In this document: piece by piece, positions 2,848 through 64,000 of the stretch
Position numbering within the stretch: position 1 is the stretch's first letter
Layout of the letters: the number at the start of each line of letters is the position of its first letter
Source of the DNA: Atopobiaceae bacterium
GTDB lineage: Bacteria > Actinomycetota > Coriobacteriia > Coriobacteriales > Atopobiaceae
Length of the DNA stretch: 64,000 nt
Assembly: GCA_022482785.1 (NCBI GenBank)
Contig: JAKVON010000014.1
Coordinates: 3,938 to 67,937, forward strand
Direction: 5' to 3'
Notes under the pieces: generated by a model
The model's database searches: none
What the model saw: the letters and a program-made list of their open reading frames with translations, nothing else
What the model was told of the DNA's origin: nothing
Made by a program: the position numbers and the translations under genes

Positions 2848-4614
2848 GTGAAGGTCAACATAAAGATTGAGGGCAAGGACTACCAGGTCGAAGAGGGTAC
2901 GACGATTCTGGAGGCCGCCCGGGCCTGTGGCTACGAGATTCCTTCGCTGTGCTCTTACAACCACGGCGAGTGCAGCCAGGGCTCATGCCGCGTCTGCCTC
3001 GTCGAGGCGACCGGCGCCCGTGGCCTCGTGGCCTCGTGCGTCTATCCGGTGGCGGAGGGCATGGAGGTCAAGATCTCGAGCCCCAAGGCCGTCGCCGCGC
3101 GCCGCACCTCGGTCGAGCTGCTGCTCTCGAACCACTCGCAGAACTGCCAGCAGTGCCGCAAGAACGGCCACTGCGAGCTTCTCTACGTGGCCCAGCTCAC
3201 GGGTGCCCGCGAGGGCGCCTTCACGGGCGAGAAGACCGAGACGCACTACGACGACCTCACGCCGTCGATCATCCGCGACTCCAGCAAGTGCATCTTGTGC
3301 GGCCGCTGCATCGAGCGGTGCAAGAGCGCGCACGGCAACGGGGTGCTGGGCTTCGAGAGGCGCGGCTTCAAGACGTTCGTGGCGCCTGCCGGCAACCTCT
3401 CGCTCGACAAGTCCCCCTGCCTCATGTGCGGCCAGTGCGTGAGCGTGTGCCCAACGGGCGCGCTGCTCGTCAAGTCGGAGATAGGCAAGGTCGACGCGGC
3501 CATGGTCTCGGGCAAGCACGTCATCGTGCAGACGGCCCCCGCCGTCCGCGCCGCGCTCGGCGAGGAGTTCGGCTACCCCATCGGCACGGCGGTCACGGGC
3601 AAGATGGTCGCTGCGCTCAGGCGCCTGGGCTTCGAGAAGGTCTACGACACCGACTTCGGCGCCGACCTCACGATCATGGAGGAGGCGACGGAGCTGCTGC
3701 ATCGCATCGAGTCCGGCGGCGTCCTGCCCATGATCACCTCCTGCTCGCCCGGCTGGGTCAACTACGCCGAGACCTACTACCCAGACCTGCTGCGGCACGT
3801 CTCGTCGTGCAAGTCTCCCCACGAGATGCAGGGAGCCATCCTCAAGAGCTACTACGCCCAGCAGAAGGGCATCGACCCCGCCGACATCTTCGTGGTCTCG
3901 ATCATGCCCTGCACGGCGAAGAAGTACGAGAAGGACCGCCCGCAGATGAAGAACGAGGCGGGCCTCAAGGACGTCGACGCGGTCCTCACCGTGACCGAGC
4001 TGGCCGAGATGATCCGCCGCAGCGGCATCCTGTTCAAGCGCCTCCCCGACGAGGAGTACGACCAGGACATCATGGGCGAGTACTCGGGTGCCGGCACCAT
4101 CTTCGGCGTCACGGGCGGCGTCATGGAGGCGGCGCTGCGCACGGCCTACTTCGTGCTCGAGGGCAAGGAGCACGAGGGGATCACCTTCGAGCAGGTGCGC
4201 GGCTTCGACGACGTCAAGGAGGCGAGCTTCGCCCTCGGCGGCCAGACGCTCAACGTCGCCGTCACGAGCGGCATGAGGAACGCCAGCAAGCTGCTCGACG
4301 ACGTCCGCGCCGGAAAGAGCAAGTACCAGTTCATCGAGATCATGTGCTGCCCCGGCGGCTGCATCAACGGCGGCGGCATGCCCATCGTGCGCCACGCGTT
4401 CCTGCCCGACGAGGACGTCGACATCGTCGACACCTACCGCGCCAAGCGCGCCGCCGCCCTCTATTCGGAGGACGAGCGCAACGTCCTGCGCCAGTCGCAC
4501 AACAACACGCAGATCCAGGCCCTCTACAAGGAGTTCCTGGGCGAGCCCAACTCCCACCTCGCACACGAGCTGCTCCACACCTCGTACAAGGCGAGGGAGC
4601 CGTTCCGCGCCTAG
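2848..4614 (+). CDS. hydA: [FeFe]-hydrogenase catalytic subunit, M3-type (HydA)
   Basis: GTG 2848 preceded by AAGGGGAGG (2832-2840). N-terminal 2Fe-2S, HxxxCxxCx5C and two 4Fe-4S motifs. H-domain motifs MPCTAKKYE and EIMCCPGGCINGGG. The first H-cluster motif reads TSCSPGW (see findings). Confidence 0.93.
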   Translation: MKVNIKIEGKDYQVEEGTTILEAARACGYEIPSLCSYNHGECSQGSCRVCLVEATGARGLVASCVYPVAEGMEVKISSPKAVAARRTSVELLLSNHSQNCQQCRKNGHCELLYVAQLTGAREGAFTGEKTETHYDDLTPSIIRDSSKCILCGRCIERCKSAHGNGVLGFERRGFKTFVAPAGNLSLDKSPCLMCGQCVSVCPTGALLVKSEIGKVDAAMVSGKHVIVQTAPAVRAALGEEFGYPIGTAVTGKMVAALRRLGFEKVYDTDFGADLTIMEEATELLHRIESGGVLPMITSCSPGWVNYAETYYPDLLRHVSSCKSPHEMQGAILKSYYAQQKGIDPADIFVVSIMPCTAKKYEKDRPQMKNEAGLKDVDAVLTVTELAEMIRRSGILFKRLPDEEYDQDIMGEYSGAGTIFGVTGGVMEAALRTAYFVLEGKEHEGITFEQVRGFDDVKEASFALGGQTLNVAVTSGMRNASKLLDDVRAGKSKYQFIEIMCCPGGCINGGGMPIVRHAFLPDEDVDIVDTYRAKRAAALYSEDERNVLRQSHNNTQIQALYKEFLGEPNSHLAHELLHTSYKAREPFRA

Positions 4615-27292: not shown

Positions 27293-27446
27293 GGTGCCTC
27301 CCCATGGGGCGCCGCGATGGGCGTCCCTGCACGCTCGATAGTTATCGCGGACAAGGGTAGCAGCCCGGTCCCGCGTGGCAGGCGGCGCGGGCCGTTTCGT
27401 AATCTGCAGATAACAGAAGGGTCATGTGGCGACCGTGGTTGGTCCC

Positions 27447-27621
27447 TGGCAGAAAAAGCAGGGTGTGCGGTCGGAGGGCCGCGGCGCGTGGCAGAAAAAG
27501 TCGAGTTTGCGGTTCCCAAACCTCTCCCGCAACCGGCTTCGGCTCGAAAACACGACCGCACACCCTACTTTTACTGCCAGAAGATTGCTTTTGAGGACCG
27601 CACACCCTGCTTTTCCTGCCA
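27447..27621. repeat. 175-bp composite element of four 26-nt units (two forward, two reverse), copy A
   Basis: Units at 27447-27472, 27489-27514, 27554-27579 and 27596-27621. Unit starts are at offsets 0/42/107/149. See findings. Confidence 0.85.
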
Positions 27622-27720
27622 TGCGGGGCAATAGGGGGGCGGCGAGGTGGGTATCGTGATGGTGGTGGAACGTCCTCGCGCGTCCCTCCTCCTTGTATCC
27701 GCCGCAGAAGGGCTCTTCGC

Positions 27721-35876: not shown

Positions 35877-36017
35877 CGGGGTCCCGAGGCTCCCGGGCGC
35901 CGCCTGTCGCATCAGGTTCCTTTAGGCCTTGAGAAGAAGCCGCGTCCGCATGGACACGTTCCGCCCAGGGGTCTATGGTGGCGGCAACGCCAGCCAGGGG
36001 ACAGATGGGAGGTCGTC

Positions 36018-36338
36018 ATGGACGCGACGGACGAGGTTCTGGAGTCGGGGCTCGCAGACGACGAGCTCGAGGCGTGCCTTCGCTACCAGCTGGAGTCCTG
36101 CCTGCAGGAACGTGCGGCGGCGGTTCTCGACGGGCGCTGCCGTTCCCTGCTCCTCGACTTCGCCCCAAGGCATCTCGCGAGCCTCTACCCCAGCCTGGAC
36201 CAGACCATGCGGGCGCTCGAGCGCGTCGTCCGACGCCTCGCGGAGCGCCTCGAGGCGAGCGGCATCATCCTGTCCATCCGCGCGCGGGTGGGAGAGGGGA
36301 TCGTCCTCTCGGTGGCGAACTCGGCGGCCTTCGCGTAA
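36018..36338 (+). CDS. Hypothetical protein (106 aa)
   Basis: GGGAGG lies 5 nt upstream of the ATG. High GC3. No recognisable family. The C-terminal IILSIRARVGEGIVLSVANS faintly resembles a kinase ATPase strand. Confidence 0.45.
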   Translation: MDATDEVLESGLADDELEACLRYQLESCLQERAAAVLDGRCRSLLLDFAPRHLASLYPSLDQTMRALERVVRRLAERLEASGIILSIRARVGEGIVLSVANSAAFA

Positions 36339-36356
36339 GGCGTCGCGGGGCGCCTC

Positions 36357-36935
36357 TCACGCGAGGTTGCGGAACTCCCCGATGGGATGGACGGCAGGCT
36401 GGTCGGCCACGTGCTCGCCGATGACCTTCTCCATCCAGGCCATGTCGTACCAGCGGCCGAACTTGTGGCCGCACTGCGAGAAGCGTCCCACGAGACGGAA
36501 GCCCATGTGCTCGTGATAGGCGATGGAATCGGCCGAGAGGCGCGCGTCCGGGCCGTTCGGGCAGGCGATGCAGGCCTCCATGTTGAGGATCCCCTGGGCG
36601 TCGAGCAGGCGCTCGAGCGAGTCGTAGAGCATCCTTCCCACGCCTCGGCGGCGCAGGTCCTGCCGCACGTAGACGCTCGTCTCGACGGCCCAGTCGTAGG
36701 CGGGCCTGTCCTTGAAGGGGCCGGCGTAGGCATAGCCCAGGGGCCCTCCCCCGCGCTCGGCCACGAGGAAGGGGTAGCGCCCGAGCGTCGTCCCGATGCG
36801 CCGCGAGAACTCCTCCGCCGAGGGAACCTCGTACTCGAACGAGACGGCGGTGTCCCTCACGTAGGGCGCGTAGATGGCGAGCAGCGCCTCCGCGTCCCGC
36901 TCGTCCGCGAACCTCACCGTGATGTCCTCTTCCAT
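36357..36935 (-). CDS. GNAT N-acetyltransferase, phosphinothricin/methionine-sulfoximine acetyltransferase-like
   Basis: 192 aa. RFADERDAEALLAIYAPYV...TAVSFEYEVPS...RRRGVGRMLY pattern typical of the PAT subfamily. Confidence 0.85.
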   Translation of the reverse strand: MEEDITVRFADERDAEALLAIYAPYVRDTAVSFEYEVPSAEEFSRRIGTTLGRYPFLVAERGGGPLGYAYAGPFKDRPAYDWAVETSVYVRQDLRRRGVGRMLYDSLERLLDAQGILNMEACIACPNGPDARLSADSIAYHEHMGFRLVGRFSQCGHKFGRWYDMAWMEKVIGEHVADQPAVHPIGEFRNLA

Positions 36936-49189: not shown

Positions 49190-51379
49190 ATGTCGAAGAA
49201 GACCATCCTCATAGCAGACAACTCCCTCATCAACCGGACGTACCTCTCCGGCATCCTGAGCGACGAGTACGACTGCCTGGAGGCAGTGGATGGCCAGAAG
49301 GCGCTCGACATCCTGAGGGAGCGCGGCATCGACATCGCCGCCATGCTCCTCGACCTCGTCATGCCTGTCATGGATGGCTACCAGGTCCTCGAGGAGATGT
49401 CCAAGGACCCGGGGCTCCGGCAGATTCCCGTCGTCGTGGTCACCGCCGAGAGCGAGACCAGCGTCGAGGCGCGCGCTCTCGATGCCGGTGCCATGGACTT
49501 CCTCACCAAGCCCATCGAGCCCGAGATAGCCCGCCGGCGCATCAAGTCGGTGGTCAACGCGCGCGAGCTCGAGGAGCTCCACATCAGGAACCGCCTGCTC
49601 GAGGAGATGCAGTACCAGGCCGACCACGACGAGCTCACGGGAATCTTCTCCCGCAGTGCCTTCTATCGCGACACGAGGGCGATGCTTCTCGCGAACCCCG
49701 ACACGGACTACATCCTCATCCGCTGGGACATCGAGAAGTTCAAGCTCGTGAACGACCTGTTCGGCATGAAGACAGGCGACCAGATGCTCGTCGCCGCGGC
49801 GGAGAGCCTTGCCCGTCACGTCTCCGACCTGGGGACCTACGGCCGGTTCGGCTCAGACAACTTCCTCATCTGCGTGCCGGCCGCGTCCCTCGACGTCGAG
49901 AGCTTCATGGACGTCATCGTCAACGAGATCCGGAGCTCGTTCGAGGACGCCGGCATCGCTCAGTCCGTGGTCCTGGCGACGGGCGTCTTCCGCATCACCG
50001 ACCACGACCTCGCCGTCGGGCAGATGTGCGACCGCGCAGGCATGGCGCTCCAGACGGTCAAGGGCGACTATACCAGGCACGTCGCCTACTACGACGACAA
50101 GCTCGGGAATCGCCTCCTCGAGGACCAGGACATCCTCGACAACATGGAGGCGGCGCTCGCCAACGGCGAGTTCGAGGTCAACCTCCAGCCGGTCTACAGC
50201 CTCTCCACCGGCCGTCCGGCCAGCGCCGAGGCCCTCGTGCGGTGGCGGCGCCCCGGCAAGGGGCTCGTCTCGCCCGGGGTGTTCATCCCCCTCTTCGAGG
50301 AGAACGGCTTCATCTCCAAGATGGACTACAACATCTGGGAGCAGGTCTGCCAGATCCAGCACATGCGCAACGAGAAGGGCCTCACGCCCATACCCATCTC
50401 GGTGAACCTCTCCCGCAAGAGCGTCTACGACCCCAACCTCGTCGAGAGCATCGTCGGGCTCCTGAGGCGCTACGAGATCGAGCCCCGGCTCTTCCGCAAC
50501 GAGGTCACCGAGTCCGCCTACATCGACAACGCGACCCAGCTCATCAAGACCGTCGAGGACCTCCAGCGCTATGGCTTCACGGTGCTGATGGACGACTTCG
50601 GCAACGGCTACTCGTCGTTCAACACCCTGAAGGACATCCCGGTCGACATCCTCAAGATCGACATGAAGTTCATGGAGGGATTCGAGCGCGGCGGGCGCGT
50701 CGGCGTGATTCTCGCCTCGGTCCTCCGCATGACCAAGTGGCTCGGCATTCCCGTCATCGCCGAGGGCGTCGAGACGCTCGAGCAGTACGAGTTCCTCCAC
50801 TCCATCGGATGCGACTACACGCAGGGGTTCTACTTCGCGCGCCCCATGCCCTACGACGAGTTCGAGGAGCACGTCGCGGGCCTGCCCAAGGCGGCCATCA
50901 CCTCGCCGGCCCGATTCCACGTGGACGACGTCGTCGCGGCCCTGGGAAGCGGCCACCTCTTCGACCGCGTGATGGACGACATCCTCGATGCCTATGCGGT
51001 CTACGAGTTCAACGCCAGCGCCCTCGAGACGGTGCGCGGGAGCGAGGGCTACTTCAAGCTGTTCGGCTACGACATGGACGCGTTCAAGCGCGAGTCGAGC
51101 AACGTCCTCCATCACATCGTCCACGACGACCGCGAGTACGTGGTCCAGGCCTGCCATGAGGCCATCGAGACCGGCAAGCCTTGCAACCTGGCCATCTCGT
51201 GCACCGTCAGGGGAGGCGAGGTGTGTCGCCTCCATCTCACGCTCTCCTGCGTGGGCAAGTCCAACGACGAGACCGCCCTTATCTTCGCCGCGTTCCATCT
51301 CATCGACAACGGCTGCGAAGGCGACCTTCACGCCTCGTGCCCGTATGCCTCCGAGAACGTCGGCAAGCACGTCTTCTAG
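49190..51379 (+). CDS. Response regulator: REC - degenerate GGDEF - EAL - C-terminal PAS-like domain
   Basis: 729 aa. REC ILIADNS...LLDLVMPVMDG. The GGDEF position reads RFGSDNFLI. EAL domain is intact (EALVRW, EVTES, DDFGNGYSS, KIDMKF, EGVET, QGFYFARP). Confidence 0.9.
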   Translation: MSKKTILIADNSLINRTYLSGILSDEYDCLEAVDGQKALDILRERGIDIAAMLLDLVMPVMDGYQVLEEMSKDPGLRQIPVVVVTAESETSVEARALDAGAMDFLTKPIEPEIARRRIKSVVNARELEELHIRNRLLEEMQYQADHDELTGIFSRSAFYRDTRAMLLANPDTDYILIRWDIEKFKLVNDLFGMKTGDQMLVAAAESLARHVSDLGTYGRFGSDNFLICVPAASLDVESFMDVIVNEIRSSFEDAGIAQSVVLATGVFRITDHDLAVGQMCDRAGMALQTVKGDYTRHVAYYDDKLGNRLLEDQDILDNMEAALANGEFEVNLQPVYSLSTGRPASAEALVRWRRPGKGLVSPGVFIPLFEENGFISKMDYNIWEQVCQIQHMRNEKGLTPIPISVNLSRKSVYDPNLVESIVGLLRRYEIEPRLFRNEVTESAYIDNATQLIKTVEDLQRYGFTVLMDDFGNGYSSFNTLKDIPVDILKIDMKFMEGFERGGRVGVILASVLRMTKWLGIPVIAEGVETLEQYEFLHSIGCDYTQGFYFARPMPYDEFEEHVAGLPKAAITSPARFHVDDVVAALGSGHLFDRVMDDILDAYAVYEFNASALETVRGSEGYFKLFGYDMDAFKRESSNVLHHIVHDDREYVVQACHEAIETGKPCNLAISCTVRGGEVCRLHLTLSCVGKSNDETALIFAAFHLIDNGCEGDLHASCPYASENVGKHVF

Positions 51380-51395
51380 GCCCTCGCCGCACCCC

Positions 51396-51570
51396 GGGCA
51401 GAAAAAGCGGGGAATGCGGTCGTCCGGGGTTCCCTCCTGGCAGAAAAAGTCGAGTGTGTGGTCGTGTTTTTGGGCCGTTGCCCGTCTCGGGCGGGTCCCA
51501 GGGACCGCATTCTCTACTTTTTCTGCCCCCGAGCAGCTTCCGATGACCGCACACCCCATCTTTCCTGCCA
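51396..51570. repeat. 175-bp composite element of four 26-nt units, copy B
   Basis: Units at 51396-51421, 51438-51463, 51503-51528 and 51545-51570. The offsets 0/42/107/149 are identical to copy A. Confidence 0.85.
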
Positions 51571-51684
51571 TCGCCCGTCGGCCGAGACAATCGCCCGCGG
51601 CAATCCCTCTTGTGATTGCTCTCTGCCATCACATGCGATACTGAGGGACATGGTGCCTGGTCTCGGATCGAGGGGGTGGTCGTC

Positions 51685-54600
51685 ATGGAGGTGTCGGACG
51701 AGACCATCGACGTCCTCGCCGCCTCCTTCCCTGGCGACTTCGCCATCGTTCGGCTCGAGGCCGACTCCGTCGTGACCCTGCGCCGCTCCGAGGGCCTCCA
51801 TGGCCTCTTCGGCATGGACCGGCGCGAGTACGCCGACCTCGTTCGCGACGACCCGCTCTCCGTGGTCTTCGAACGCGACCGGCCCCTCGCGAGCGAGGCG
51901 CTCGCCTCGCTCGGGGCCGGCGAGGGCGAGGCCTCCCTCTCCCTCAGGCTCGTCCACAAGGCCAAGCTCGCGATGTGGTCCCGCGCGAGGGTCCGGGTCG
52001 TGGGCACGCAGGGGGGGAGCCCCGTCGCGGCATGCTCGCTCCTCGACTCCTCGGACGGCATCAACGAGCACTCCCAGCTGCTCGGCAACGCCGGCATAGG
52101 AATCTACGTCATCGACGTCGGCACCCACGAGCTGCTCTATGTCAACGACCACCTCCTCGAGGCCTGGGGTCGCTCCGACTATCCGGGCCGGCTCTGCCAC
52201 GAGTTCGTCAACGGCTTCCCCCATCCCTGCGCGTGGTGCTCCGTCCCCCTCATGGAGGACGGGTCGTTCCACGCGGACGAGGCCTATGACCCCAGGAACG
52301 ACAAGTGGTTCACCATCGACTGCCGGGACGTCGACTGGTACGGGCATGCCGCGGTGGCCGTCTACTCCATCGACGTCACGGCGCGGAAGCTTCGCGAGGA
52401 GCATCTCGAGATCGACGTCGACGGCCTCCAGTCGATAATCGAGAACATCCCGTTCGGCATCGCCGTGAGGGAGATGCGCGACGGGCGAACCGTGACGAGC
52501 GTCGTGAACCCCATGTTCTGCGGCCTGCTCGACATCACGAGGGGGCAGTACCTCGCCGACAGCGGCGACATCCTCGAAAAGGTCCTCGAGGAGGACCGCG
52601 CGAAGCTGACCGCCCACATGAGGACGCTCCTCGGGCCGAGCGACGAGAGGGAGTGCGTCTTCCGCTACGCGGTGGGCGCCGCGCGGACGGTGCGCTGGTA
52701 CTCCCTGCGCACGCGCACGATCGCGCAGCAGGGCAGCACGCTCATACTCTCGTGCCTCATCGACCTCACCGCGGAGCGCGAGGCCCAGCTCCAGGCGCTG
52801 CAGAACCAGAGGATGTACGAGGCGGCCGTCGAGGAGGCGCGCCTCTCCGTCTGGGAGTACGACATGTCGGGCCGCCACATCGCCCTGACGGGAAGGGGCG
52901 ATGCGTTCCCCGGGGCCCTCGAGGCGGAGCCGTCCCAGCTCATCGAGAACGTCCCCGACTCCCTGCTGTCCTTCGTCGCCGAGCACGACCGCGCCGCCTT
53001 CGCCGACATGTTCCGCCAGGTCGCCGAGGGAGCTCCCAGGGCGGCGTGCGAGGTCTGGTACAAGGCCCGGGACGACAGCGAGCCCCGCTGCGAGCGCATG
53101 AGCTGCACCACGGTGTTCGATGCCGACGGCCGCCCGGTCAAGGCCTATGGAATCAGCCAGGACGTCACCGTGCAGAGGATCGAGGAGGAGAACTACGCGC
53201 GCCTCTACGGCGACATCGGCCAGCTGGACACCCAGATCATCGGCAGCTACCGGCTGAACCTCACCAAGAACGGCTTCGAGCACGTCGCCGGCGAGCTGGC
53301 GCCCTCCGATCCCTCGTCGGCCGACCGCTCCGCCGACGCCTTCTTCTCGCTGCTCGCCTCCGACATCGAGGACGGCGCGATCCGCGAGCGCTTCTCCGGG
53401 ACGATCTCGCGCGAGCGCCTGCTCGAGGCCTTCCGCGAGGGCAGGCAGCGCCTCTCCATGGAGTTCCCGATCGTGCTCTCGGACGGGGGCGTCCACTGGA
53501 TCGAGAACGTCTACTCGATGGCGCAGAACCCCCTCACCGGCGACGTCGAGGCCGTCTCCTACGCGCGCGACATAAGCCTGCGCGTGAAGGACGAGGCCGT
53601 CGTTCGCCAGATCGCCGAGCAGGGCTACGACTTCGTCGGCATGGTCGACGCCAAGTCGGGCCTCTTCGAGATGCTCCAGCTGAGGCCGGGCGCGCCGCAT
53701 GCGTTTCCCCTCAACGAGAAGACGGCCTACGCGGCCTTCCTCGAGTGGCTCGGCCGCAATGCCCTCGGCGACGACGCCGAGGCCATGGGGACCGCCATAC
53801 GCCTCTCCGCGGTGCGCGACTCGCTGGGTCGCAGCCCCGTCCTGAACGTGCCCTATCGCGCCGTGGGCGACGACGGCTCCGAGCTGCGCAAGCAGCTGCA
53901 GTTCAGCTGGATGGGAAACCTCCGGCGGGAGGTCCTGATCGCCCAGACCGACGTCACCTCCTCGTATCGCCTCGAGCAGGAGCAGATACGCAGGCTCGAT
54001 GCCGCCCGCCGCGCCCAGGAGCACACGAGCGCCCTCATGCAGAGCATCCTCGACACCACGCCCGCCTCCATCTTCTGGAAGGACGCCGACCGTCGCTTCG
54101 AGGGCGCGAACAGGGCCTTCCTCGACTTCTACGGCTTCCCCTCGCTCGATGCCATCCTCGGCAGGAACGACGAGGACATGGGCTGGCATCCCGACGCGGA
54201 GCCCTACAGGAACGACGAGCTCGCCGTCATCCGCGACGGGGTCTCCACCCACCGCGTGCCCGGCATCTGCGTCGTGCGCGGCCGGGAGCGCAACATCGTC
54301 GCGAGCAAGAGCCCGCGCTACGAGCGGGGCTCGATCGTGGGGCTCGTGGGCAGCTTCGAGGACGTGACCGACGAGTACGAGCGCAACGCGGAGATCGCGC
54401 GCCTGAACGACGACCTCAAGCGCTCGCTCGGCGAGGTCGAGAAGGCCAATGCCGCCGAGCAGGCCTTCATGTCCAACCTGAGCCATGACATCCGCACGCC
54501 GCTCGGCGGGGTCCTCGGCTTCACCGAGCTGGCCATGGACACGAACGACATCACGCTCAAGCAGAGCTACCTGGAGAAGATCGACGCCTCGGGGAAGCTC

Positions 54601-55587
54601 ATGCTCGACCTCGTCAACGACGTGCTCGACATGTCCAAGATAGAGAGCGGGAAGATGGAGCTCAGGCCCGAGCCCTTCGGGTTCCGCGGCCTCATCAAGG
54701 GCATCGTCGACCCCCTGCGCATCTCCGCCAAGGCGGGCGACGTGGGCCTCGAGTACAGCGTCGACCCCCACTACCCGCGCTTCGTCCGCGCCGACCGCCT
54801 GCGCCTCCAGCAGGTCATCCTGAACCTCGTCTCCAACGCCGTGAAGTACACCCCGGCCGGCGGGAAGGTGGAGCTCGAGGTGAGCCGCCTGAGCCCGGAG
54901 CAGGACGGCTGCAACACCTGCATCAGGGTCTCGGACAACGGCATCGGCATGTCGAGGGAGTTCCAGGAGCACATGTTCGAGCCGTTCACCCAGGAGCACC
55001 AGAGCAGCATGTACTCCGTGCTAGGGACGGGGCTCGGCCTCACCATCGTGCGGCAGATCGTGAGCCTCATGAGCGGCCGCATCGAGGTCGAGAGCACCAT
55101 CGGCAAGGGCTCGACCTTCAGGGTCTACCTGCCTGTCGAGCAGGTCGAGACCGGGGCCGAGCCCCAGCTTTCCCAGGGTCCCGTGGCGAGCATCGAGGGA
55201 CGCCACCTCATGCTCTGCGAGGACAACGACCTCAACGCGGAGATAGCCACGACCATCCTCCGCGAGCGTGCCCATGCCTCGGTCGAGCGCTTCGGCAACG
55301 GGCGGCTCGGCCTCGACGCCTTCGCCTCCTCGGCCCCCGGCACCTACGACGCGATTCTCATGGACCTCAGGATGCCCGTCATGGACGGCATCGAGACGAC
55401 CAAGGCCATCCGCGCCCTCGACCGCCCCGACGCCAGGTCCATCCCCATCGTGGCCATGACGGCCGACGCCTTCGTCGAGGACGTCAGGAGATGCCGGGAG
55501 GCGGGGATGAACGCGCACGTCTCCAAGCCCGTCGACCCCCTGCGTCTCGTCTCGGTCCTCGCCGAGCAGCTTGCGGGAGGCGCATGA
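51685..55587 (+). CDS. Large soluble multi-PAS hybrid sensor histidine kinase
   Basis: ATG 51685 follows GAGGGGG (the ORF opens at 51616). About 1300 aa with several PAS-like repeats. H-box [28 protein letters not shown] and GTGLGLTIV. REC MLCEDNDLN...ILMDLRMPVMDG...MTADAF. Confidence 0.9.
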   Translation: MEVSDETIDVLAASFPGDFAIVRLEADSVVTLRRSEGLHGLFGMDRREYADLVRDDPLSVVFERDRPLASEALASLGAGEGEASLSLRLVHKAKLAMWSRARVRVVGTQGGSPVAACSLLDSSDGINEHSQLLGNAGIGIYVIDVGTHELLYVNDHLLEAWGRSDYPGRLCHEFVNGFPHPCAWCSVPLMEDGSFHADEAYDPRNDKWFTIDCRDVDWYGHAAVAVYSIDVTARKLREEHLEIDVDGLQSIIENIPFGIAVREMRDGRTVTSVVNPMFCGLLDITRGQYLADSGDILEKVLEEDRAKLTAHMRTLLGPSDERECVFRYAVGAARTVRWYSLRTRTIAQQGSTLILSCLIDLTAEREAQLQALQNQRMYEAAVEEARLSVWEYDMSGRHIALTGRGDAFPGALEAEPSQLIENVPDSLLSFVAEHDRAAFADMFRQVAEGAPRAACEVWYKARDDSEPRCERMSCTTVFDADGRPVKAYGISQDVTVQRIEEENYARLYGDIGQLDTQIIGSYRLNLTKNGFEHVAGELAPSDPSSADRSADAFFSLLASDIEDGAIRERFSGTISRERLLEAFREGRQRLSMEFPIVLSDGGVHWIENVYSMAQNPLTGDVEAVSYARDISLRVKDEAVVRQIAEQGYDFVGMVDAKSGLFEMLQLRPGAPHAFPLNEKTAYAAFLEWLGRNALGDDAEAMGTAIRLSAVRDSLGRSPVLNVPYRAVGDDGSELRKQLQFSWMGNLRREVLIAQTDVTSSYRLEQEQIRRLDAARRAQEHTSALMQSILDTTPASIFWKDADRRFEGANRAFLDFYGFPSLDAILGRNDEDMGWHPDAEPYRNDELAVIRDGVSTHRVPGICVVRGRERNIVASKSPRYERGSIVGLVGSFEDVTDEYERNAEIARLNDDLKRSLGEVEKANAAEQAFMSNLSHDIRTPLGGVLGFTELAMDTNDITLKQSYLEKIDASGKLMLDLVNDVLDMSKIESGKMELRPEPFGFRGLIKGIVDPLRISAKAGDVGLEYSVDPHYPRFVRADRLRLQQVILNLVSNAVKYTPAGGKVELEVSRLSPEQDGCNTCIRVSDNGIGMSREFQEHMFEPFTQEHQSSMYSVLGTGLGLTIVRQIVSLMSGRIEVESTIGKGSTFRVYLPVEQVETGAEPQLSQGPVASIEGRHLMLCEDNDLNAEIATTILRERAHASVERFGNGRLGLDAFASSAPGTYDAILMDLRMPVMDGIETTKAIRALDRPDARSIPIVAMTADAFVEDVRRCREAGMNAHVSKPVDPLRLVSVLAEQLAGGA

Positions 55588-56771
55588 TGGCGTCGCGCGG
55601 GGGTGCCATGCGCGAGGGGACCGGCCTCCTGGTCGCGGCCACGTTCGGCGCGATCTTCCTGAACGGCTTCGAGGCGGGCGGCTATCAGGCCTGCCTCCAG
55701 AGCATCGGCGCGGAGTACTCCCTCTCGGGCTCGCTGATGGGTGCCCTCGCCTCGGTGCAGCTCGTGGCGTGCCTCGTCGCCCCGCTCGTGTTCGGGCCCC
55801 TGGCCGACCGGCGCGGCAAGCGCCCCGTGCTCCTGGCGTTCCTCGCCGTCGAGGTGGCATCGAGCGTGCTCGCGACGGCCTCCCATGACCCCGCCGCCTT
55901 CGCCGTCGCCATCTTCGGCGTGGGCGTCGCCGTGAGCACCGTCCAATACGTCGTCCTGGCGGGGATAGCCGACGCGTTCCCTGCCACGGGAAGGCGCAAG
56001 CTCGGGTTCGTGACCGGCATGTACTCGCTCGGCGCCGTCATCTCGCCGCTCCTCTGCGGCGGCCTCATCTCCGCGGGCATGTCCTGGAGGGCCTTCTTCG
56101 TCGTCCTGGCCGCGGCCTCGGCACTCGCCTGCGGCGCGTTCGTCGCCTGCGACTTCGCCCCCAGGGAGGCTCCCTCGGCCGGCGGCGGGGCAGGCGCCGC
56201 GACGTCGGGGGAGGGTGCCTGGGACGGGCTCGGCGTGGGACTCCTCTGCCTCGTGATGTTCGTCTACGTGGGCGTCGAGAGCGGCATCGGCTACTTCATG
56301 AACTCGTTCGTGTCCACCGAGCTCTCGGGCTCCAGCTCCTACCTCGCGCTCTCGCTCTTCTGGGCCGCCATGATCCCGTCGCGCATGCTGTGCGGCGCCA
56401 AGGCCGCCCGCCGCGGGCCCCTCCTCGTGGCGGCCTGCGTCGGCGCGGGGGTCCTCACGGCGGCGATGTCGCTGCTCTCCTCGTCCGTGGCTGCCGTGGC
56501 CCTGGCCGCCGCGATGGGCTTCTTCTGCGGGGCGGTCTATCCCTGCGTGCTCGCCTACGACGTCGACTTCGCCGGCGGCCGCACGGCCACGGCCACGGGC
56601 CTCATCACCGCGGCGACGGGCCTGGGAGGGGCGATCGTGACCCTCGCGTTCGGCTGGATGTCTGACGCGCTCGGCATGAGGATGGCCTTCGCCCTGCTGG
56701 GAGGGCTTATGCTCGTCGACGTGGCGGCGGCGGTCGCCCTGCTCGCGAGGGGGAGGAGGCAGCATGCGTAG
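55584..56771 (+). CDS. MFS transporter
   Basis: ATG 55584 overlaps the kinase stop (ATGA), with GGGAGG upstream. 395 aa, about 12 TM. MFS loop GPLADRRGKRP. Confidence 0.85.
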   Translation: MMASRGGAMREGTGLLVAATFGAIFLNGFEAGGYQACLQSIGAEYSLSGSLMGALASVQLVACLVAPLVFGPLADRRGKRPVLLAFLAVEVASSVLATASHDPAAFAVAIFGVGVAVSTVQYVVLAGIADAFPATGRRKLGFVTGMYSLGAVISPLLCGGLISAGMSWRAFFVVLAAASALACGAFVACDFAPREAPSAGGGAGAATSGEGAWDGLGVGLLCLVMFVYVGVESGIGYFMNSFVSTELSGSSSYLALSLFWAAMIPSRMLCGAKAARRGPLLVAACVGAGVLTAAMSLLSSSVAAVALAAAMGFFCGAVYPCVLAYDVDFAGGRTATATGLITAATGLGGAIVTLAFGWMSDALGMRMAFALLGGLMLVDVAAAVALLARGRRQHA

Positions 56772-59583
56772 ACGCTCCCTATTGGCACACGGCGCGTTCG
56801 CGCTGCTCCTTGCCCTTGTCCTCGCCGTGTTCGCGCCTGGCCTCGCGACGCCGGCCCTTGCGGCGGAGCCCTCGGCCGCGCAGACGACGGTCCGTGTCGG
56901 CTACTTCAACAACGGCGACTTCATGCACAAGGCCGCCGACGGCAGCTACGAGGGCTATGACGTCGAGTACTACTACACGCTCGCCAGCTATGCCAACTGG
57001 AAGATACAGTTCGTCGACTACGACAGCCTGAACGCCGCGCTCGCCGGGCTCAAGGCAGGGGACATCGACATGATGAGCGGCCTCTCCAAGACCACCGAGC
57101 GGGAGAGCAGCTATCTCGCCTCTGCCCAGAAGATGTGCACCACCCACATCGCGGTGCAGACCCGCGCCGACGATGACCGCTACTCCCCGGGTGACGTCTC
57201 GGGCATGGCGGACATGACGTGCGGCATCCTCAAGGGGTCGAACGTCGTGGCCCTCTACGAGGCGTGGTGTGCGGAAGGGGGCCTCACGCCCCATGTCGTG
57301 GAATACGACACCCTCCAGGCCAGGAACGACGCGTTCGCCTCGGGCCAGGTCGATGCCATCGCGGCCGGATCCACCATCGAAGGCGCCCAGAAGGTCGCGG
57401 AGTTCCCCGGGCTCGACCTGTTCTTCATGCTCAACCAGTCGCAGACAGACCTCAAGGCCCAGGTCGACCGCTCGATGTCCGTCCTCTCGCTCACCGAGCC
57501 GGCCTATGAGACCAACCTCACCCTCAAGTACTTCCCGGCGTCCAAGAACTCGACGCCCTCCTTCTCGGCCAGGGAGAAGGCCTTCGTCGCGTCGCATCAG
57601 ACGATAAGGGTCGCGGTGCTTTCCGATGACGCGCCCTTCAGCGTGGTCGACTCCTCCGGCAACGCCACGGGGATACTGCCCGAGTACTTCGACCACCTCG
57701 GCCAGGAGATCGGCGTCACGTTCGTGTGCGTGGGATGCGCCGACAAGGACGCCGCCTGTGCGGCGCTCGCGGCAGGCGAGGTCGACGCCATCGGCAAGTA
57801 CCAGAACGACGCCTACGACGCCAACGCGCGCGCAACGATCCTGGGCGACGTCTACCTGCCGATGAGCCTCGTGCAGATCACCCGCGCGGGCACGGGCTCC
57901 GTCTCCACCGTGACCGTTCCCGAGTGCAACGCCGAGATGGTCGAGGCCCTGGCTGCGGGCGCGGGCTTCCAGGCCCCGATCACCTCGTGCAGCAACGCCG
58001 AGAAGTGCTTCGGGCGCCTCAAGGCGGGAGAGGTGGATGCTGTCATCTGCCCCCAGGTGAGCGCCTCGTGGCTCCTCACCCGCAACCGCTCGTCCGACTA
58101 CGTGGTGTCGGCGTTCGGTACGAAGAGCTGGGATGCCTGCATGGCCTTCGCTCCAGGTACGGATGGCAATCTGCTCAGGTCGATCGTGAACAAGACGATC
58201 GCCGTCGACGGCAGCTACATCGACCAGCTGATCACGAAGGACACCCTCCAGGACTCCGCCGACCTCACGGGGCTGCTCGAGCGCGTCCCCACGCCGGTCC
58301 TCGTGGCGCTCGCCACGATCCTGTTCCTCGTCGCCGCACTCGCGGTGGTCTCGGCCATCGTCCTCGCACGCCGTCGCAAGCACGAGCGTAGCCTCGCGCA
58401 GCAGCAGGCCGAGGCCGACCGCCGCGAGTCGGAGCTCCGGATCGAGGCCCGCACCAACGAGGCCCAGCAACGCTTCTTCGGCACGGTGAGCCATGACATG
58501 CGCACCCCCCTGAACGGCATCATGGGCTTCGCCGACCTCGCCCTGGAGAGCGACGACCCGGCGCGTACGCGCGATTACCTCACGAAGATCCGCACGTCGG
58601 GCCGCATCCTCACCGAACTCGTCGACGACACGCTCGTGATGTCGCGCCTCTCGAGCGGCAAGCTCGTGCTCCATCCCATCCCGTGCGACAACCACGAGGT
58701 GTTCGATGACGTCTGCCTGCCGATACGCGCGACGGCAGAGGCCAAGGGCGTCGCGTTCGAAGACGATGTCGCGGACCTCCCGCGCCGAACGGTCATGGTC
58801 GATCGGCCGGCCCTCCAGAAGGTCCTGCTCAACCTGCTCTCCAATGCGATCAAGTTCACGCCTGCCGGCGGCACGGTCACGCTCGGGGTCTCCCTCATGC
58901 CAGCGGGGTCCGAGAGCCCCGACACCGTCTTCACGGTCGCCGACACCGGCGAGGGTATCTCCGAGGAGTTCCTCCCGCACGCCTTCGATGCCTTCAGCCA
59001 GGAGAACCCCATGGTGGCAGGATCGACCACCGGCACGGGCCTGGGACTTTCCATCGCCAAGGGCGTCGTGGAGGCGATGGGCGGCACCATCTCGGTGACC
59101 AGCGAGAAGGGTGTGGGCTCCACCTTCACCGTCCGCCTGCATCTCGATCGGGCCGAGCAGCCGCAGACAGCTGCCCCGTCCGGTGCCAACACCCTCACGG
59201 GCAAGACCATCCTCGTCTGCGAGGACAACGCGCTCAACGCGGAGATAATCAGGACCATCCTCGAGAAGGCCGGCGCCGAGGTCGTGGTCGCCGGGAATGG
59301 CAAGCTGGGCGTCGAGGCCTTCCGCGCGAGCGCTCCCGGCGGCATCGACGCCGTGCTGCTCGACCTCCGCATGCCCGTCATGGACGGCTTCGCGGCCGCC
59401 CGCGCCATCCGTTCGCTCGACCGCGCGGACGCGGCCGTCGTCCCCATCTTCGCGGTCTCTGCCGATGCCTATCCGGAGGACGTCCAGAGATGCCGGGAGG
59501 CGGGCATGAACGGGCACCTCGCCAAGCCCGTGAGTGCGGCGGATGTCTTATCCGCGCTCGGTGGGGAAGGGGTACGGCCATGA
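56764..59583 (+). CDS. Hybrid sensor histidine kinase with two extracytoplasmic SBP_bac_3 (Venus-flytrap) domains
   Basis: Signal/TM MRRRSLLAHGAFALLLALVLAVFA. Two periplasmic-binding-protein-like modules (VRVGYFNNGDF..., IRVAVLSDDAPF...). TM LVALATILFLVAALAVVSAIVLA. SHDMRTPLNGIMGF, NLLSNAIKFTPAGG. REC LVCEDNALN...LLDLRMPVMDG. Confidence 0.9.
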   Translation: MRRRSLLAHGAFALLLALVLAVFAPGLATPALAAEPSAAQTTVRVGYFNNGDFMHKAADGSYEGYDVEYYYTLASYANWKIQFVDYDSLNAALAGLKAGDIDMMSGLSKTTERESSYLASAQKMCTTHIAVQTRADDDRYSPGDVSGMADMTCGILKGSNVVALYEAWCAEGGLTPHVVEYDTLQARNDAFASGQVDAIAAGSTIEGAQKVAEFPGLDLFFMLNQSQTDLKAQVDRSMSVLSLTEPAYETNLTLKYFPASKNSTPSFSAREKAFVASHQTIRVAVLSDDAPFSVVDSSGNATGILPEYFDHLGQEIGVTFVCVGCADKDAACAALAAGEVDAIGKYQNDAYDANARATILGDVYLPMSLVQITRAGTGSVSTVTVPECNAEMVEALAAGAGFQAPITSCSNAEKCFGRLKAGEVDAVICPQVSASWLLTRNRSSDYVVSAFGTKSWDACMAFAPGTDGNLLRSIVNKTIAVDGSYIDQLITKDTLQDSADLTGLLERVPTPVLVALATILFLVAALAVVSAIVLARRRKHERSLAQQQAEADRRESELRIEARTNEAQQRFFGTVSHDMRTPLNGIMGFADLALESDDPARTRDYLTKIRTSGRILTELVDDTLVMSRLSSGKLVLHPIPCDNHEVFDDVCLPIRATAEAKGVAFEDDVADLPRRTVMVDRPALQKVLLNLLSNAIKFTPAGGTVTLGVSLMPAGSESPDTVFTVADTGEGISEEFLPHAFDAFSQENPMVAGSTTGTGLGLSIAKGVVEAMGGTISVTSEKGVGSTFTVRLHLDRAEQPQTAAPSGANTLTGKTILVCEDNALNAEIIRTILEKAGAEVVVAGNGKLGVEAFRASAPGGIDAVLLDLRMPVMDGFAAARAIRSLDRADAAVVPIFAVSADAYPEDVQRCREAGMNGHLAKPVSAADVLSALGGEGVRP

Positions 59584-62414: not shown

Positions 62415-62431
62415 CGGGTTTCGGCCTTCGC

Positions 62432-62524
62432 GCCGACCCCCACGAATGCAGTCTGCGACCAAAAGTGGCGGGAATCGCCGCCTCGTGGCCAATGGTTGCA
62501 TTCGTGGGGATTCGCCGGGAAGGG
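62432..62524. repeat. 93-bp direct repeat, left copy (contains an inverted pair of W-type units forming a 13-bp stem)
   Basis: Matches 63908-64000 at 89/93 positions. All 4 differences lie in one 5-nt block (cagtc versus gcatt). CCCCACGAATGCA (62438-62450) pairs with TGCATTCGTGGGG (62497-62509). Confidence 0.9.
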
Positions 62525-62577
62525 CGCTGAGAGGGGCGCCTCGTCTGCCAGGCGTTTCTCTCCGCCTTATGAGACGT

Positions 62578-62695
62578 GACCCCCACGAATGGCATTTGCG
62601 ACCGCCGCAGACCCCCACGAATGCAGTCTGCGACCAGGAGTAGCCCCAAACCGCCCCACAAACTCCGCCGACCCCCACGGATCCAGTTTGCGACC
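62578..62695. repeat. Three further direct W-type 26-nt units
   Basis: GACCCCCACGAATGGCATTTGCGACC (62578-62603), GACCCCCACGAATGCAGTCTGCGACC (62610-62635) and GACCCCCACGGATCCAGTTTGCGACC (62670-62695). Confidence 0.85.
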
Positions 62696-62709
62696 ACCGG
62701 TCAACGCCC

Positions 62710-63714: not shown

Positions 63715-63907
63715 GGCCCAAGCATGCACGAAGGCTCTAACAGATTTTTGTACGCAATTTACAAATAGTGACACTCTAGCGTAAATACGCTGCTCAACGG
63801 TGCTAATTGCGATGTGCTGGTGGGAATATCTCGACCGAATTCACATAAAATAAGCATACACATCACCATCGGCGCTGCCCAACGTATAGATTATTGCCGC
63901 GAGTGGT

Positions 63908-64000
63908 GCCGACCCCCACGAATGGCATTTGCGACCAAAAGTGGCGGGAATCGCCGCCTCGTGGCCAATGGTTGCATTCGTGGGGATTCGCCGGGAAGGG
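63908..64000. repeat. 93-bp direct repeat, right copy (runs to the window edge)
   Basis: See 62432-62524. The true extent is unknown because the window ends here. Confidence 0.9.

What the first reader, a model, noticed from the sequence alone, without database searches (positions are those of the whole stretch)
27447..27621. 175-bp module of four 26-nt units at fixed offsets in the ppc/fchA divergent intergenic region (copy A)
A 175-bp module lies between ppc (start 27292, minus strand) and fchA (27721). It has two forward units: U1 TGGCAGAAAAAGCAGGGTGTGCGGTC (27447) and U2 TGGCAGAAAAAGTCGAGTTTGCGGTT (27489). It has two reverse units, U3 (27554) and U4 (27596), whose reverse complements are TGGCAGTAAAAGTAGGGTGTGCGGTC and TGGCAGGAAAAGCAGGGTGTGCGGTC. 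Unit starts fall at offsets 0, 42, 107 and 149. A 42-bp spacing is about four helical turns, so the units would sit on one face of the duplex. No CDS, tRNA or riboswitch shape that I recognise explains this stretch. I see two explanations. It could be a phased array of protein-binding sites in a divergent promoter. It could be a REPIN/MITE-like mobile hairpin.
Basis: partly seen in the sequence, partly recalled or inferred. Interest (0 to 1): 0.7.

Follow-up and report, generated by a model that had tools for sequence, protein, structure and literature searches.

The report
Four-unit palindromic intergenic repeat element
The 175-bp module is real, but it is one copy of a small repeated DNA element scattered between unrelated genes of an uncultured gut-type actinobacterium, built from four protein-recognition-like 26-bp units at fixed spacing, rather than a control region special to ppc and fchA.

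Summary
Four 26-nt units lie in the order + + - - at offsets 0/42/107/149 (27447-27621). Chance expectation is 0.

The module is not specific to this locus. A second copy lies at 51396-51570. A third lies 867 nt left of the window on the same contig, between convergent genes. The host is an uncultured Atopobiaceae, not a methylotroph; 'fchA' is an FTCD_C gene next to folD. In a sister lineage the locus is not even divergent, because Fur and catalase sit between fchA and the module.

All five distinct modules keep the same geometry. Fourteen of 26 unit positions are invariant. The outer spacers are randomised between loci but keep their length. Units are better conserved than spacers between orthologues (p = 2e-5). 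Hairpin partners show no covariation (86.3% paired, 86.2% in shuffles). This points to sequence-specific protein recognition rather than RNA structure.

No RAYT, no matching transposase, no consistent target duplication and no Rfam, plasmid or phage match were found.

Best reading: a new dispersed palindromic repeat family. Its arms resemble multi-site DDE transposon ends (two bipartite repeats per end, TG...CA termini, as in IS21). It now sits at fixed positions.

Genome-wide copy number is unresolved, partly because one of my scans was mis-specified.

The parts
27447..27621 (.). Module A, 175 bp, four units in the order + + - -. It lies between ppc (-) and the FTCD_C/folD operon (+).
   Evidence: The nhmmer model of the family scores it at 178 bits.
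27447..27472 (+). A-U1, outer unit: TGGCAGAAAAAGCAGGGTGTGCGGTC. It is identical to two units of copy C.
27489..27514 (+). A-U2, inner unit carrying the 'GTCGAG' variant. One inner unit of every module carries this variant.
27515..27553 (.). Central 39-bp spacer. It is partly conserved across loci: 25/39 identical to copy B, but only when inverted relative to the GTCGAG unit.
27554..27579 (-). A-U3, inner unit
27596..27621 (-). A-U4, outer unit of the 'GGAAAAG' type. Bases 27622-27623 read as CA just before it on the unit's own strand, as in copy C and in the sister-lineage module A' (copies B and B' share only the A). The Fur-catalase indel of the sister lineage joins at 27623|27624.
27473..27488 (.). 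Outer spacer 1, 16 bp. Its length is fixed. Its sequence is unrelated between loci.
   Evidence: 5/16 identical to copy B
27580..27595 (.). Outer spacer 3, 16 bp. Its length is fixed. Its sequence is unrelated between loci.
   Evidence: 6/16 identical to copy B
51396..51570 (.). Module B, with the same 0/42/107/149 layout. It starts 16 nt after the stop of a response-regulator GGDEF-EAL gene. It ends 114 nt upstream of the start of a hybrid histidine kinase gene.
51396..51421 (+). B-U1: GGGCAGAAAAAGCGGGGAATGCGGTC
51438..51463 (+). B-U2: TGGCAGAAAAAGTCGAGTGTGTGGTC
51503..51528 (-). B-U3: GGGCAGAAAAAGTAGAGAATGCGGTC
51545..51570 (-). B-U4: TGGCAGGAAAGATGGGGTGTGCGGTC

Best explanation
The module is one copy of a dispersed family of roughly 175-190-bp palindromic intergenic repeat elements in an uncultured Atopobiaceae. 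At least three copies lie within about 90 kb.

Each copy consists of four 26-bp units that are not themselves palindromes. The unit consensus is tGGCaGnAAAagnnGnGtnTGcGGTc. Two units run in direct order on each arm, and the two arms are inverted. Within an arm the units start 42 bp apart, which is four helical turns.

I infer that the units are recognition sites for one sequence-specific DNA-binding protein. Four protomers would assemble on one face of the DNA.

The most likely origin is the pair of ends of a non-autonomous DDE-type transposon, with two transposase-binding repeats per end. This resembles IS21, and more loosely Mu, Tn7 and IR/DR Tc1 elements. Each unit has two conserved GC-rich blocks around an A-tract, and the outer termini read 5'-TG...CA-3'.

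The copies seen here are fixed at their loci. In the arrangement seen in most lineages they lie just downstream of stop codons, where a read-through transcript would also fold into a long hairpin.

Shown: the family, its geometry, its contexts, and its conservation pattern. Inferred: the protein binding, the transposon origin, and any present function.
For: Three loci sit in three different gene contexts. Module A is at 27447-27621. Module B is at 51396-51570. Module C is at L175:2900-3075, between convergent CLC and SAM_MT genes.

Orthologous modules exist in a sister lineage, A' at L148:2539-2713 and B' at L147:555-729.

The offsets 0/42/107/149 are identical in all distinct modules. The only indel is a 1-nt G-run difference in the central spacer of C.

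Fourteen of 26 unit positions are invariant in the 16 units of A, A', B and B'. Between loci the outer spacers are at random-level identity (5-6 of 16), yet they always measure 16 bp.

Between orthologues the units are 87.5% identical and the spacers about 69% (182/208 against 97/142, Fisher p = 2e-5). There are 0 indels among 69 substitutions (Poisson p about 0.017 at one indel per 17 substitutions).

Hairpin partners do not co-vary. Pairing is 86.3%, against 86.2% in shuffles, and 267 of 500 shuffles reach the observed value. One pair is never formed. The constraint is therefore on sequence, not on pairing.

IS21 ends are described as two direct repeats per end. Each repeat has two conserved GC-rich blocks separated by about 10 AT-rich bp, with a terminal CA, and the ends are bound by an IstA tetramer (PMC10122671).

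The 2140-bp Fur-catalase indel between lineages joins exactly at the outer terminus of module A (window 27623|27624). This is the pattern an element-adjacent deletion would leave. By my rough estimate, chance coincidence is about 5%.

Module A' is flanked by TGGCTCG and TGGCTCC, a 6/7 direct repeat.
Against: No transposase with matching ends was found. The only transposase near the window is an IS256-family gene, and its inverted repeats (GAAAGTTGGTGTARGC) are unrelated. The Pfam results for the window show no integrase, IstA/IstB or Y1 transposase (gene tables).

There is no consistent target-site duplication at A, B, B' or C.

No filled-versus-empty site polymorphism was seen among about 40 strain contigs.

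Copies differ completely in their outer spacers. This is not what a recent MITE burst looks like. Conservation of units at a fixed locus is also not expected for dead transposon relics.

Unit spacing here is 42 bp, whereas in IS21 the two repeats fit within a 55-bp end.

Genome-wide copy number is unknown. The genome scan was swamped by chance hits. My metagenome scan pattern was mis-specified and could not have matched the modules.
Confidence: 0.45

Rival explanations
1. A host nucleoprotein platform. The four units are operators for a host transcription factor or nucleoid-associated protein that binds as a tetramer or as two dimers on one DNA face. It would act as an upstream regulatory element, insulator or architectural element. 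Selection by the host keeps it at each locus. It may be a domesticated repeat.
For: Units and spacer lengths are conserved at fixed loci while spacer sequence drifts. There is no covariation, so the constraint is on sequence. The copies are stable at orthologous sites in all strains and in the sister lineage. Modules A and B each sit directly upstream of a very conserved leader: 100% identity over about 140 nt before ppc, and 97.4% over 114 nt before the kinase gene. The central spacer has the same orientation relative to the downstream gene at A and B.
Against: Copy C lies between two convergent genes, where no promoter is expected. The neighbouring genes have no common theme: ppc, folate genes, catalase, c-di-GMP and kinase genes, a chloride channel, a methyltransferase. 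The module lies about 155 nt from the ppc start codon and 114 nt from the kinase start codon. By my own reading of possible -10 elements, these distances differ by a non-integral number of helical turns. No candidate regulator gene is linked to the modules. The two relatives sampled, 22 kb around ppc in each, lack the module.
Confidence: 0.3
2. An RNA-level or single-strand-level hairpin element. When read-through transcripts cross the module it folds into a long hairpin, with U1 pairing U4 and U2 pairing U3. The hairpin would act as a factor-independent terminator without a U-tail, a 3'-end mRNA stabiliser or an RNase III target, as described for REP/BIME and Correia elements.
For: Predicted folds are -92 and -97.9 kcal/mol, with z about -6 against shuffles. 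Modules B, C and A' begin 11-62 nt after a stop codon. Copy C fills the gap between convergent genes, which is the classic place for a bidirectional terminator.
Against: Pairing at variable positions is no better than in shuffled partners. Outer spacers do not pair in module A. No T-run follows either arm, and the terminator scan found nothing in the modules. In the window lineage, module A lies between divergent genes and need not be transcribed. A pure structure model does not explain why the same 14 bases are invariant at unrelated loci. No Rfam match was found.
Confidence: 0.15
3. A REPIN-type element maintained by a RAYT (an IS200/IS605-like Y1 transposase) that recognises the units as single-stranded hairpins.
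For: It is a dispersed intergenic palindromic repeat with inverted arms. There are three copies in about 90 kb.
Against: A single unit is not an imperfect palindrome and has no REP-like stem. No Y1_Tnp gene was seen in the window or the flanking 30 kb. There is no covariation of the arms. The spacers are not conserved between copies, unlike REPIN populations. To my knowledge RAYTs are mainly proteobacterial.
Confidence: 0.05

Closest known systems
Terminal inverted repeats of IS21-family insertion sequences (IS5376 IstA/IstB system; PMC10122671)
   Same: Each end has two direct repeats, giving four sites for a transposase tetramer. Each repeat is bipartite, with two conserved GC-rich blocks separated by a more variable A/T-containing stretch. 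The outer termini read 5'-TG...CA-3'.
   Different: No istA/istB or any matching transposase was found. Repeats here are 42 bp apart (a 68-bp arm), against two repeats within a 55-bp end. Only 39 bp separate the arms. There is no consistent target duplication. The unit sequence could not be compared with any IS21 end, because no ISfinder copy was available.
Bacterial MITEs such as Correia/CREE (Neisseria), RUP and ERIC
   Same: Short, non-coding, intergenic and palindromic. Present in several copies in unrelated contexts. Able to form long hairpins in transcripts. One structural rearrangement ends exactly at an element terminus.
   Different: Copies are not near-identical: outer spacers are randomised while units and spacing are kept. 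There is no target duplication, no empty sites and no parent IS. Each arm has two internal direct repeats rather than one simple terminal inverted repeat.
REP / BIME / REPIN elements of Proteobacteria
   Same: A mosaic of short conserved units in alternating orientation, with linkers of fixed length. Located at gene 3' ends. Conserved at orthologous loci.
   Different: The units are not palindromic REP hairpins. No RAYT was found. The order is + + - - rather than alternating. The host is an actinobacterium. No covariation was detected.
IR/DR ends of Tc1-like transposons (Sleeping Beauty type) and the multi-site ends of Mu and Tn7
   Same: There is an outer and an inner transposase-binding repeat in direct order on each end. 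The fixed spacing is needed for ordered assembly of the synaptic complex.
   Different: Those elements are eukaryotic or much larger and have asymmetric ends. Their site spacing and sequences differ. This is an analogy only.

Membership tests
MITE (non-autonomous DDE transposon) | Terminal inverted repeats at both ends | tested here: met
   The outer units U1 and U4 are 96% complementary, and the ends read TG...CA.
MITE (non-autonomous DDE transposon) | Target-site duplication flanking each copy | tested here: not met
   No direct repeat flanks A, B, B' or C. Only A' has a 6/7 match (TGGCTCG/TGGCTCC), which is marginal after multiple testing.
MITE (non-autonomous DDE transposon) | An autonomous element in the same or related genomes whose ends match | tested here: inconclusive
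   None was found in about 95 kb of this genome. The only transposase is IS256-type with unrelated inverted repeats. A whole-genome or ISfinder search was not possible.
MITE (non-autonomous DDE transposon) | Insertion polymorphism (filled versus empty sites) or near-identical copies showing recent movement | tested here: not met
   All three loci are occupied in every strain contig and in the sister lineage. Copies share units but not outer spacers.
REP/REPIN with RAYT | The unit is itself an imperfect palindrome that forms a short stem-loop | tested here: not met
   The 26-nt unit has no internal inverted repeat.
REP/REPIN with RAYT | A RAYT (Y1 transposase) gene is present and flanked by the repeats | tested here: inconclusive
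   No Y1_Tnp appears in any Pfam result for about 95 kb. The rest of the genome was not seen.
IS21-type transposon end | Two direct repeats per end, each bipartite (GC block, A/T-rich stretch, GC block), with a terminal CA | tested here: met
   In the unit logo GGCAG, AAAA and TGCGGT are invariant or nearly so. There are two units per arm and the termini read TG...CA. The feature is defined in PMC10122671.
IS21-type transposon end | Recognition by an IstA transposase with an IstB helper | not testable with these tools
   No istA or istB was seen in the sequence available. A binding assay is needed.
Operator array of a transcription factor regulon | Sites sit at promoters, at a consistent position, next to functionally related genes | tested here: not met
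   Copy C lies between convergent genes. The module lies about 155 nt from the ppc start codon and 114 nt from the kinase start codon. The neighbouring genes are functionally unrelated.
Structured RNA family | Base pairs maintained by compensatory change, or a match to a curated model | tested here: not met
   86.3% of cells are paired against 86.2% in shuffles, and 267 of 500 shuffles reach the observed value. No Rfam hit reached the gathering score, and no meaningful hit had E < 1.
Intrinsic terminator | A GC-rich hairpin followed by a T-run | tested here: not met
   The terminator scan found no site inside either module. Hairpins without a T-run are not excluded for Actinobacteria.
Invertible promoter (inverton) | Both orientations of the segment between the inverted repeats occur at one locus, and a linked invertase gene is present | tested here: not met
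   Each locus has one orientation in all contigs. The orientation of the inner block differs only between loci. No recombinase gene is nearby. Read-level data were not available.

The most novel reading that the evidence does not exclude
The modules are a dispersed, selectively maintained four-site nucleoprotein platform. An unknown protein, possibly a domesticated transposase, would bind as a tetramer at gene boundaries. It would act as a chromosomal insulator, boundary or recombination-organising element. Such a system has not been described in Actinobacteria. The units and the 42-bp ruler would be kept by host selection while everything between them drifts.
Probability: 0.15. Interest if true: 0.7.

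Novelty: new variant of a known kind. Interest (0 to 1): 0.4.

Why it matters
If the reading is right, this is a previously undescribed family of small repeats in the Coriobacteriia. I found no report of REP- or MITE-like elements in that class.

Its evolutionary signature is unusual for a selfish repeat. The binding-site-like units and an exact spacing are preserved at fixed loci, while the spacers are randomised.

That makes it a compact test case for two questions. One is how transposon ends become host-maintained DNA architecture. The other is which protein reads a 26-bp bipartite site with a 42-bp ruler.

In practical terms, the element marks strain-variable junctions and contig breaks in metagenome assemblies of these gut and rumen bacteria. 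It also corrects a tempting but wrong link to ppc and one-carbon regulation.

Tried and rejected
No four-unit module appeared in its 113 loci.

(2) A REP-like palindrome in a Thermoanaerobaculia MAG matched the pattern at five loci. Only its AAAAG...TGCGGTC core is conserved and its arms face the other way. I treat it as a chance resemblance.

(3) My metagenome-contig scan used a pattern with one N too many. It cannot match the modules (verified). Its five hits are irrelevant and the scan says nothing about abundance.

(4) The first viral two-unit scan was also mis-spaced. The corrected scan found nothing. The single-unit viral scan gave only chance hits.

(5) blastn against plasmids and phages found nothing relevant.

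(6) I tried to find further copies through spurious ORFs called across modules. I used a synthetic six-frame query, a four-sequence frame alignment and a profile search of 1.84 billion representatives. None gave a true hit. The searches did not recover the 66-aa ORF that JGI called over A', so this route has little sensitivity.

(7) Sigma-54 promoter reading: in the unit, GG and GC are 8 nt apart, not 10. Rejected by inspection.

(8) A small protein (MAGK...) reading through the module: substitutions between orthologues fall at all codon positions and are non-conservative. Rejected.

(9) Hypermutability of modules: A and A' are 80% identical against 96.9% at ppc third codon positions. However, C is 97% identical between strains and B is identical in ten contigs. 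I therefore explain the A/A' difference as an old allele next to an indel, not as hypermutation.

(10) The IS256-family element on the same contig as a possible parent: its inverted repeats are unrelated.

(11) A literature string search for the unit found only primer coincidences.

Full report
**Observation.** It has two forward 26-nt units, at 27447 and 27489, and two reverse units, at 27554 and 27596. Start offsets are 0, 42, 107 and 149. U1 is 96% complementary to U4 and 93% complementary to U3. A search with U1 at up to 3 mismatches, and a degenerate search, gave 3 and 8 matches. No dinucleotide-preserving shuffle gave any. The eight matches are this module plus a second one at 51396-51570 with the same four offsets. 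No tRNA and no Rfam family covers either module, at gathering score or at E < 1.

**Organism and neighbours.** The gene on the left is a phosphoenolpyruvate carboxylase. The gene on the right is an FTCD_C-family cyclodeaminase/cyclohydrolase followed by folD. The closest ppc proteins (72-77% identity) belong to Olsenella, Tractidigestivibacter, Thermophilibacter and unnamed Atopobiaceae. NCBI names the window's own proteins 'MAG... [Atopobiaceae bacterium]'. The setting is therefore an anaerobic Coriobacteriia genome of about 67% G+C, not a serine-cycle methylotroph. Module B lies 16 nt after the stop of a response-regulator GGDEF-EAL gene and 114 nt before a PAS hybrid histidine kinase, inside a cluster of signalling genes.

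**More copies and orthologues.** Contigs carrying identical neighbour proteins gave many copies of the same strain. Modules A and B are unchanged in them.

- A sister lineage occurs in the same samples. Module B' (L147:555-729) sits at the orthologous site, in a region 88.5% identical to the window.
- Module A' (L148:2539-2713, also on L125, L126 and L151) sits 154 nt upstream of ppc, in flanks 97-98% identical.
- Looking up the first gene of the window gave the left end of the window's own contig. This revealed a third locus. Module C (L175:2900-3075) lies 867 nt left of window base 1. It starts 11 nt after the stop of a CLC channel gene and ends 28 nt from the stop of a convergent methyltransferase gene. 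Three strain variants of C were recovered.
- No further copy lies elsewhere in the window, in 20 kb to its right, or anywhere in the 1.47 Mb of loci fetched up to that point. That makes three copies in about 90 kb of this genome.
- The relatives sampled have none: 22 kb around a 77%-identical ppc, 22 kb of Olsenella sp. KH1P3, and 15 kb of a 61% G+C species.

**Anatomy and evolution.**

- *Geometry.* All five distinct modules (A, A', B, B', C) have units at 0/42/107/149. The only length change is one extra G in a G-run of the central spacer of C on L175.
- *Unit conservation.* Fourteen of 26 positions are invariant in the 16 units of A, A', B and B'. The consensus is tGGCaGnAAAagnnGnGtnTGcGGTc. 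This amounts to two conserved GC-rich blocks (GGCAG and TGCGGT) around an A-tract and a variable G-rich stretch.
- *Spacers between loci.* The 16-bp outer spacers are no more alike than random sequence (5-6 of 16). The 39-bp central spacer keeps about 55-64% identity.
- *Orthologous pairs.* Units are 87.5% identical at both loci (91/104 each). Spacers are about 69% identical. The combined Fisher test gives p = 2e-5. There are no indels among 69 substitutions, with p about 0.017 at the indel rate of the flanks.
- *Flanking leaders.* The DNA between each module and the downstream start codon is far better conserved: 97.4% before the kinase gene and 100% over about 140 nt before ppc.
- *Divergence differs by locus.* Module A differs by 20% from A', while ppc third codon positions differ by 3%. 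Module C differs by only 3% between strains. B is identical across ten contigs. Modules are therefore not intrinsically hypervariable. The A/A' pair looks like an old allele retained next to a structural difference.
- *Orientation of inner parts.* Three markers differ in relative orientation among A, B and C: the 'GTCGAG' inner unit, the central spacer, and the 'GGAAAAG' outer unit. Nested inversions between the inverted units would produce this pattern. Each locus shows one orientation in all contigs.

**Structure or sequence?** Both window modules fold into long hairpins of -92 and -97.9 kcal/mol, with z about -6. That follows trivially from the inverted arms. I tested the hairpin on the seven distinct module sequences, pairing U1 with U4 and U2 with U3. 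Of all cells, 86.3% are paired. Shuffling partners among sequences gives 86.2%, and 267 of 500 shuffles reach the observed value. One pair is never formed, and several variable positions are mostly unpaired. The outer spacers of module A do not pair. Complementarity is thus a by-product of all units sharing one consensus. What is conserved is the base sequence of each unit and the distances between units. This points to recognition by a sequence-specific protein rather than to an RNA or cruciform structure. The 42-bp unit spacing is 4.0 helical turns. The A-tracts of the inner units are 73 bp apart, which is 6.95 turns. All four sites therefore face one side of the helix, by my arithmetic.

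**Why it is not a ppc/fchA promoter array.** Three findings argue against it.

- The same module occurs between tandem genes (B) and between convergent genes (C).
- In the sister lineage, a 2140-bp segment encoding Fur and catalase lies between fchA and module A'. There the module follows the catalase terminator and the locus is not divergent.
- The module lies about 155 nt from the ppc start codon and 114 nt from the kinase start codon. The sigma-70 consensus scan found no promoter in or near the modules.

In the arrangement seen in most lineages, each module begins 11-62 nt after a stop codon.

**What it most resembles.** The layout is two direct repeats per arm with inverted arms, bipartite GC/A-tract/GC units and 5'-TG...CA-3' outer termini. 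This is the layout of DDE transposon ends that carry several transposase sites. For IS21, each end has two direct repeats (L1/L2 and R1/R2). Each repeat has two conserved GC-rich blocks about 10 AT-rich bp apart. The end carries a terminal CA. An IstA tetramer binds with catalytic subunits on the outer repeats and structural subunits on the inner ones (PMC10122671).

One event in the data fits past transposase action. The Fur-catalase indel joins exactly at the outer terminus of module A (window 27623|27624), as an element-adjacent deletion would. A' also has a 6/7 direct repeat at its two ends.

Several points count against membership in any transposon family.

- No matching transposase was found. 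The one on the contig is IS256-type with unrelated ends.
- No consistent target duplication was found.
- No empty site was found.
- The copies share only their units.

REPIN membership fails because the unit is not a palindrome and no Y1 transposase was seen.

**Conclusion.** The finding is a real, non-random feature. It is one member of a dispersed palindromic repeat family that, as far as the tools and the literature searches show, has not been described.

My preferred reading (0.45) is a non-autonomous element that resembles transposon ends. Its four units are protein-binding sites, and it is now fixed at gene boundaries.

The main rival (0.30) is that a host protein uses these sites and host selection maintains them. 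The conservation pattern at fixed loci favours this rival. The convergent-gene copy and the unrelated neighbours count against a classical regulon.

An RNA hairpin role (0.15) is possible as a side effect but has no specific support.

**Limits.** Genome-wide copy number, the binding protein and any activity are unknown. One of my two large DNA scans was saturated by chance matches. The other was mis-specified by one base and is void.

Noticed in passing
window 62437-62700 (also L169:1006-1267 and 2482-2743; L170:1928-2046 and 3262-3523): A second, unrelated repeat family. The unit is about 27 nt, GACCCCCACGAATGCAGTCTGCGACCA. It occurs four times in direct order plus one inverted copy, between a hybrid kinase gene and a DUF559 endonuclease-like gene. 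On longer contigs the same array of roughly 260 bp lies on both sides of the DUF559 gene, as if bracketing it.
   Followed up: partly
window 27402-27411: A perfect 10-bp palindrome, ATCTGCAGAT. It lies inside the roughly 140 nt between module A and the ppc start that are 100% identical between lineages. It is probably the real operator or promoter region of ppc.
   Followed up: no
window 27623|27624; L148:397-2536: The sister lineage carries a 2140-bp Fur plus catalase segment that the window lineage lacks. It also carries an extra 972-aa hybrid kinase gene between ppc and the alpha-amylase gene. The Fur-catalase junction coincides with the outer end of module A.
   Followed up: partly
window 50842-64000 versus L147:1-13104: A divergent island of about 13 kb of signalling genes (EAL C-terminus, PAS kinase, MFS transporter, two SBP-type kinases, DUF559). 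It is only 88.5% identical between the two lineages. Neighbouring regions (ppc, type IV pilus genes) are 97-100% identical. The sister-lineage contig starts exactly where the divergence begins.
   Followed up: partly
L175:95-1565 (same contig, about 2.4-3.8 kb left of window base 1): An IS256-family insertion sequence (Transposase_mut/MULE, 429 aa) with inverted repeats GAAAGTTGGTGTA(G/A)GC. It lies about 1.3 kb from module C. Its ends are unrelated to the module units.
   Followed up: yes
L014:4600-4720, L068:3360-3450, L095:585-685, L099:7370-7470, L111:2605-2715: A Thermoanaerobaculia MAG (SMAG_U11898) carries a REP-like palindromic element at gene ends at five or more loci. Its form is TTTGGAGTGCGGTGACCGCAGTCACCGCTTTT...AAAAGCGGTGACTGCGGTCACCGCACTCCAAA. 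It was picked up only because part of it fits the search pattern.
   Followed up: partly
window about 35908-36389 (L001:18188-18669 versus L002): An indel of about 450 bp between two strains 98% identical elsewhere. It contains a 106-aa ORF (36018-36338) with no Pfam match.
   Followed up: no
L076:1530-1767: The end of a contig of a Pseudomonadota MAG is a long perfect inverted duplication that includes the start of an Rrf2-family gene. This is probably an assembly artefact. It produced the only two-hit locus in the genome scan.
   Followed up: partly
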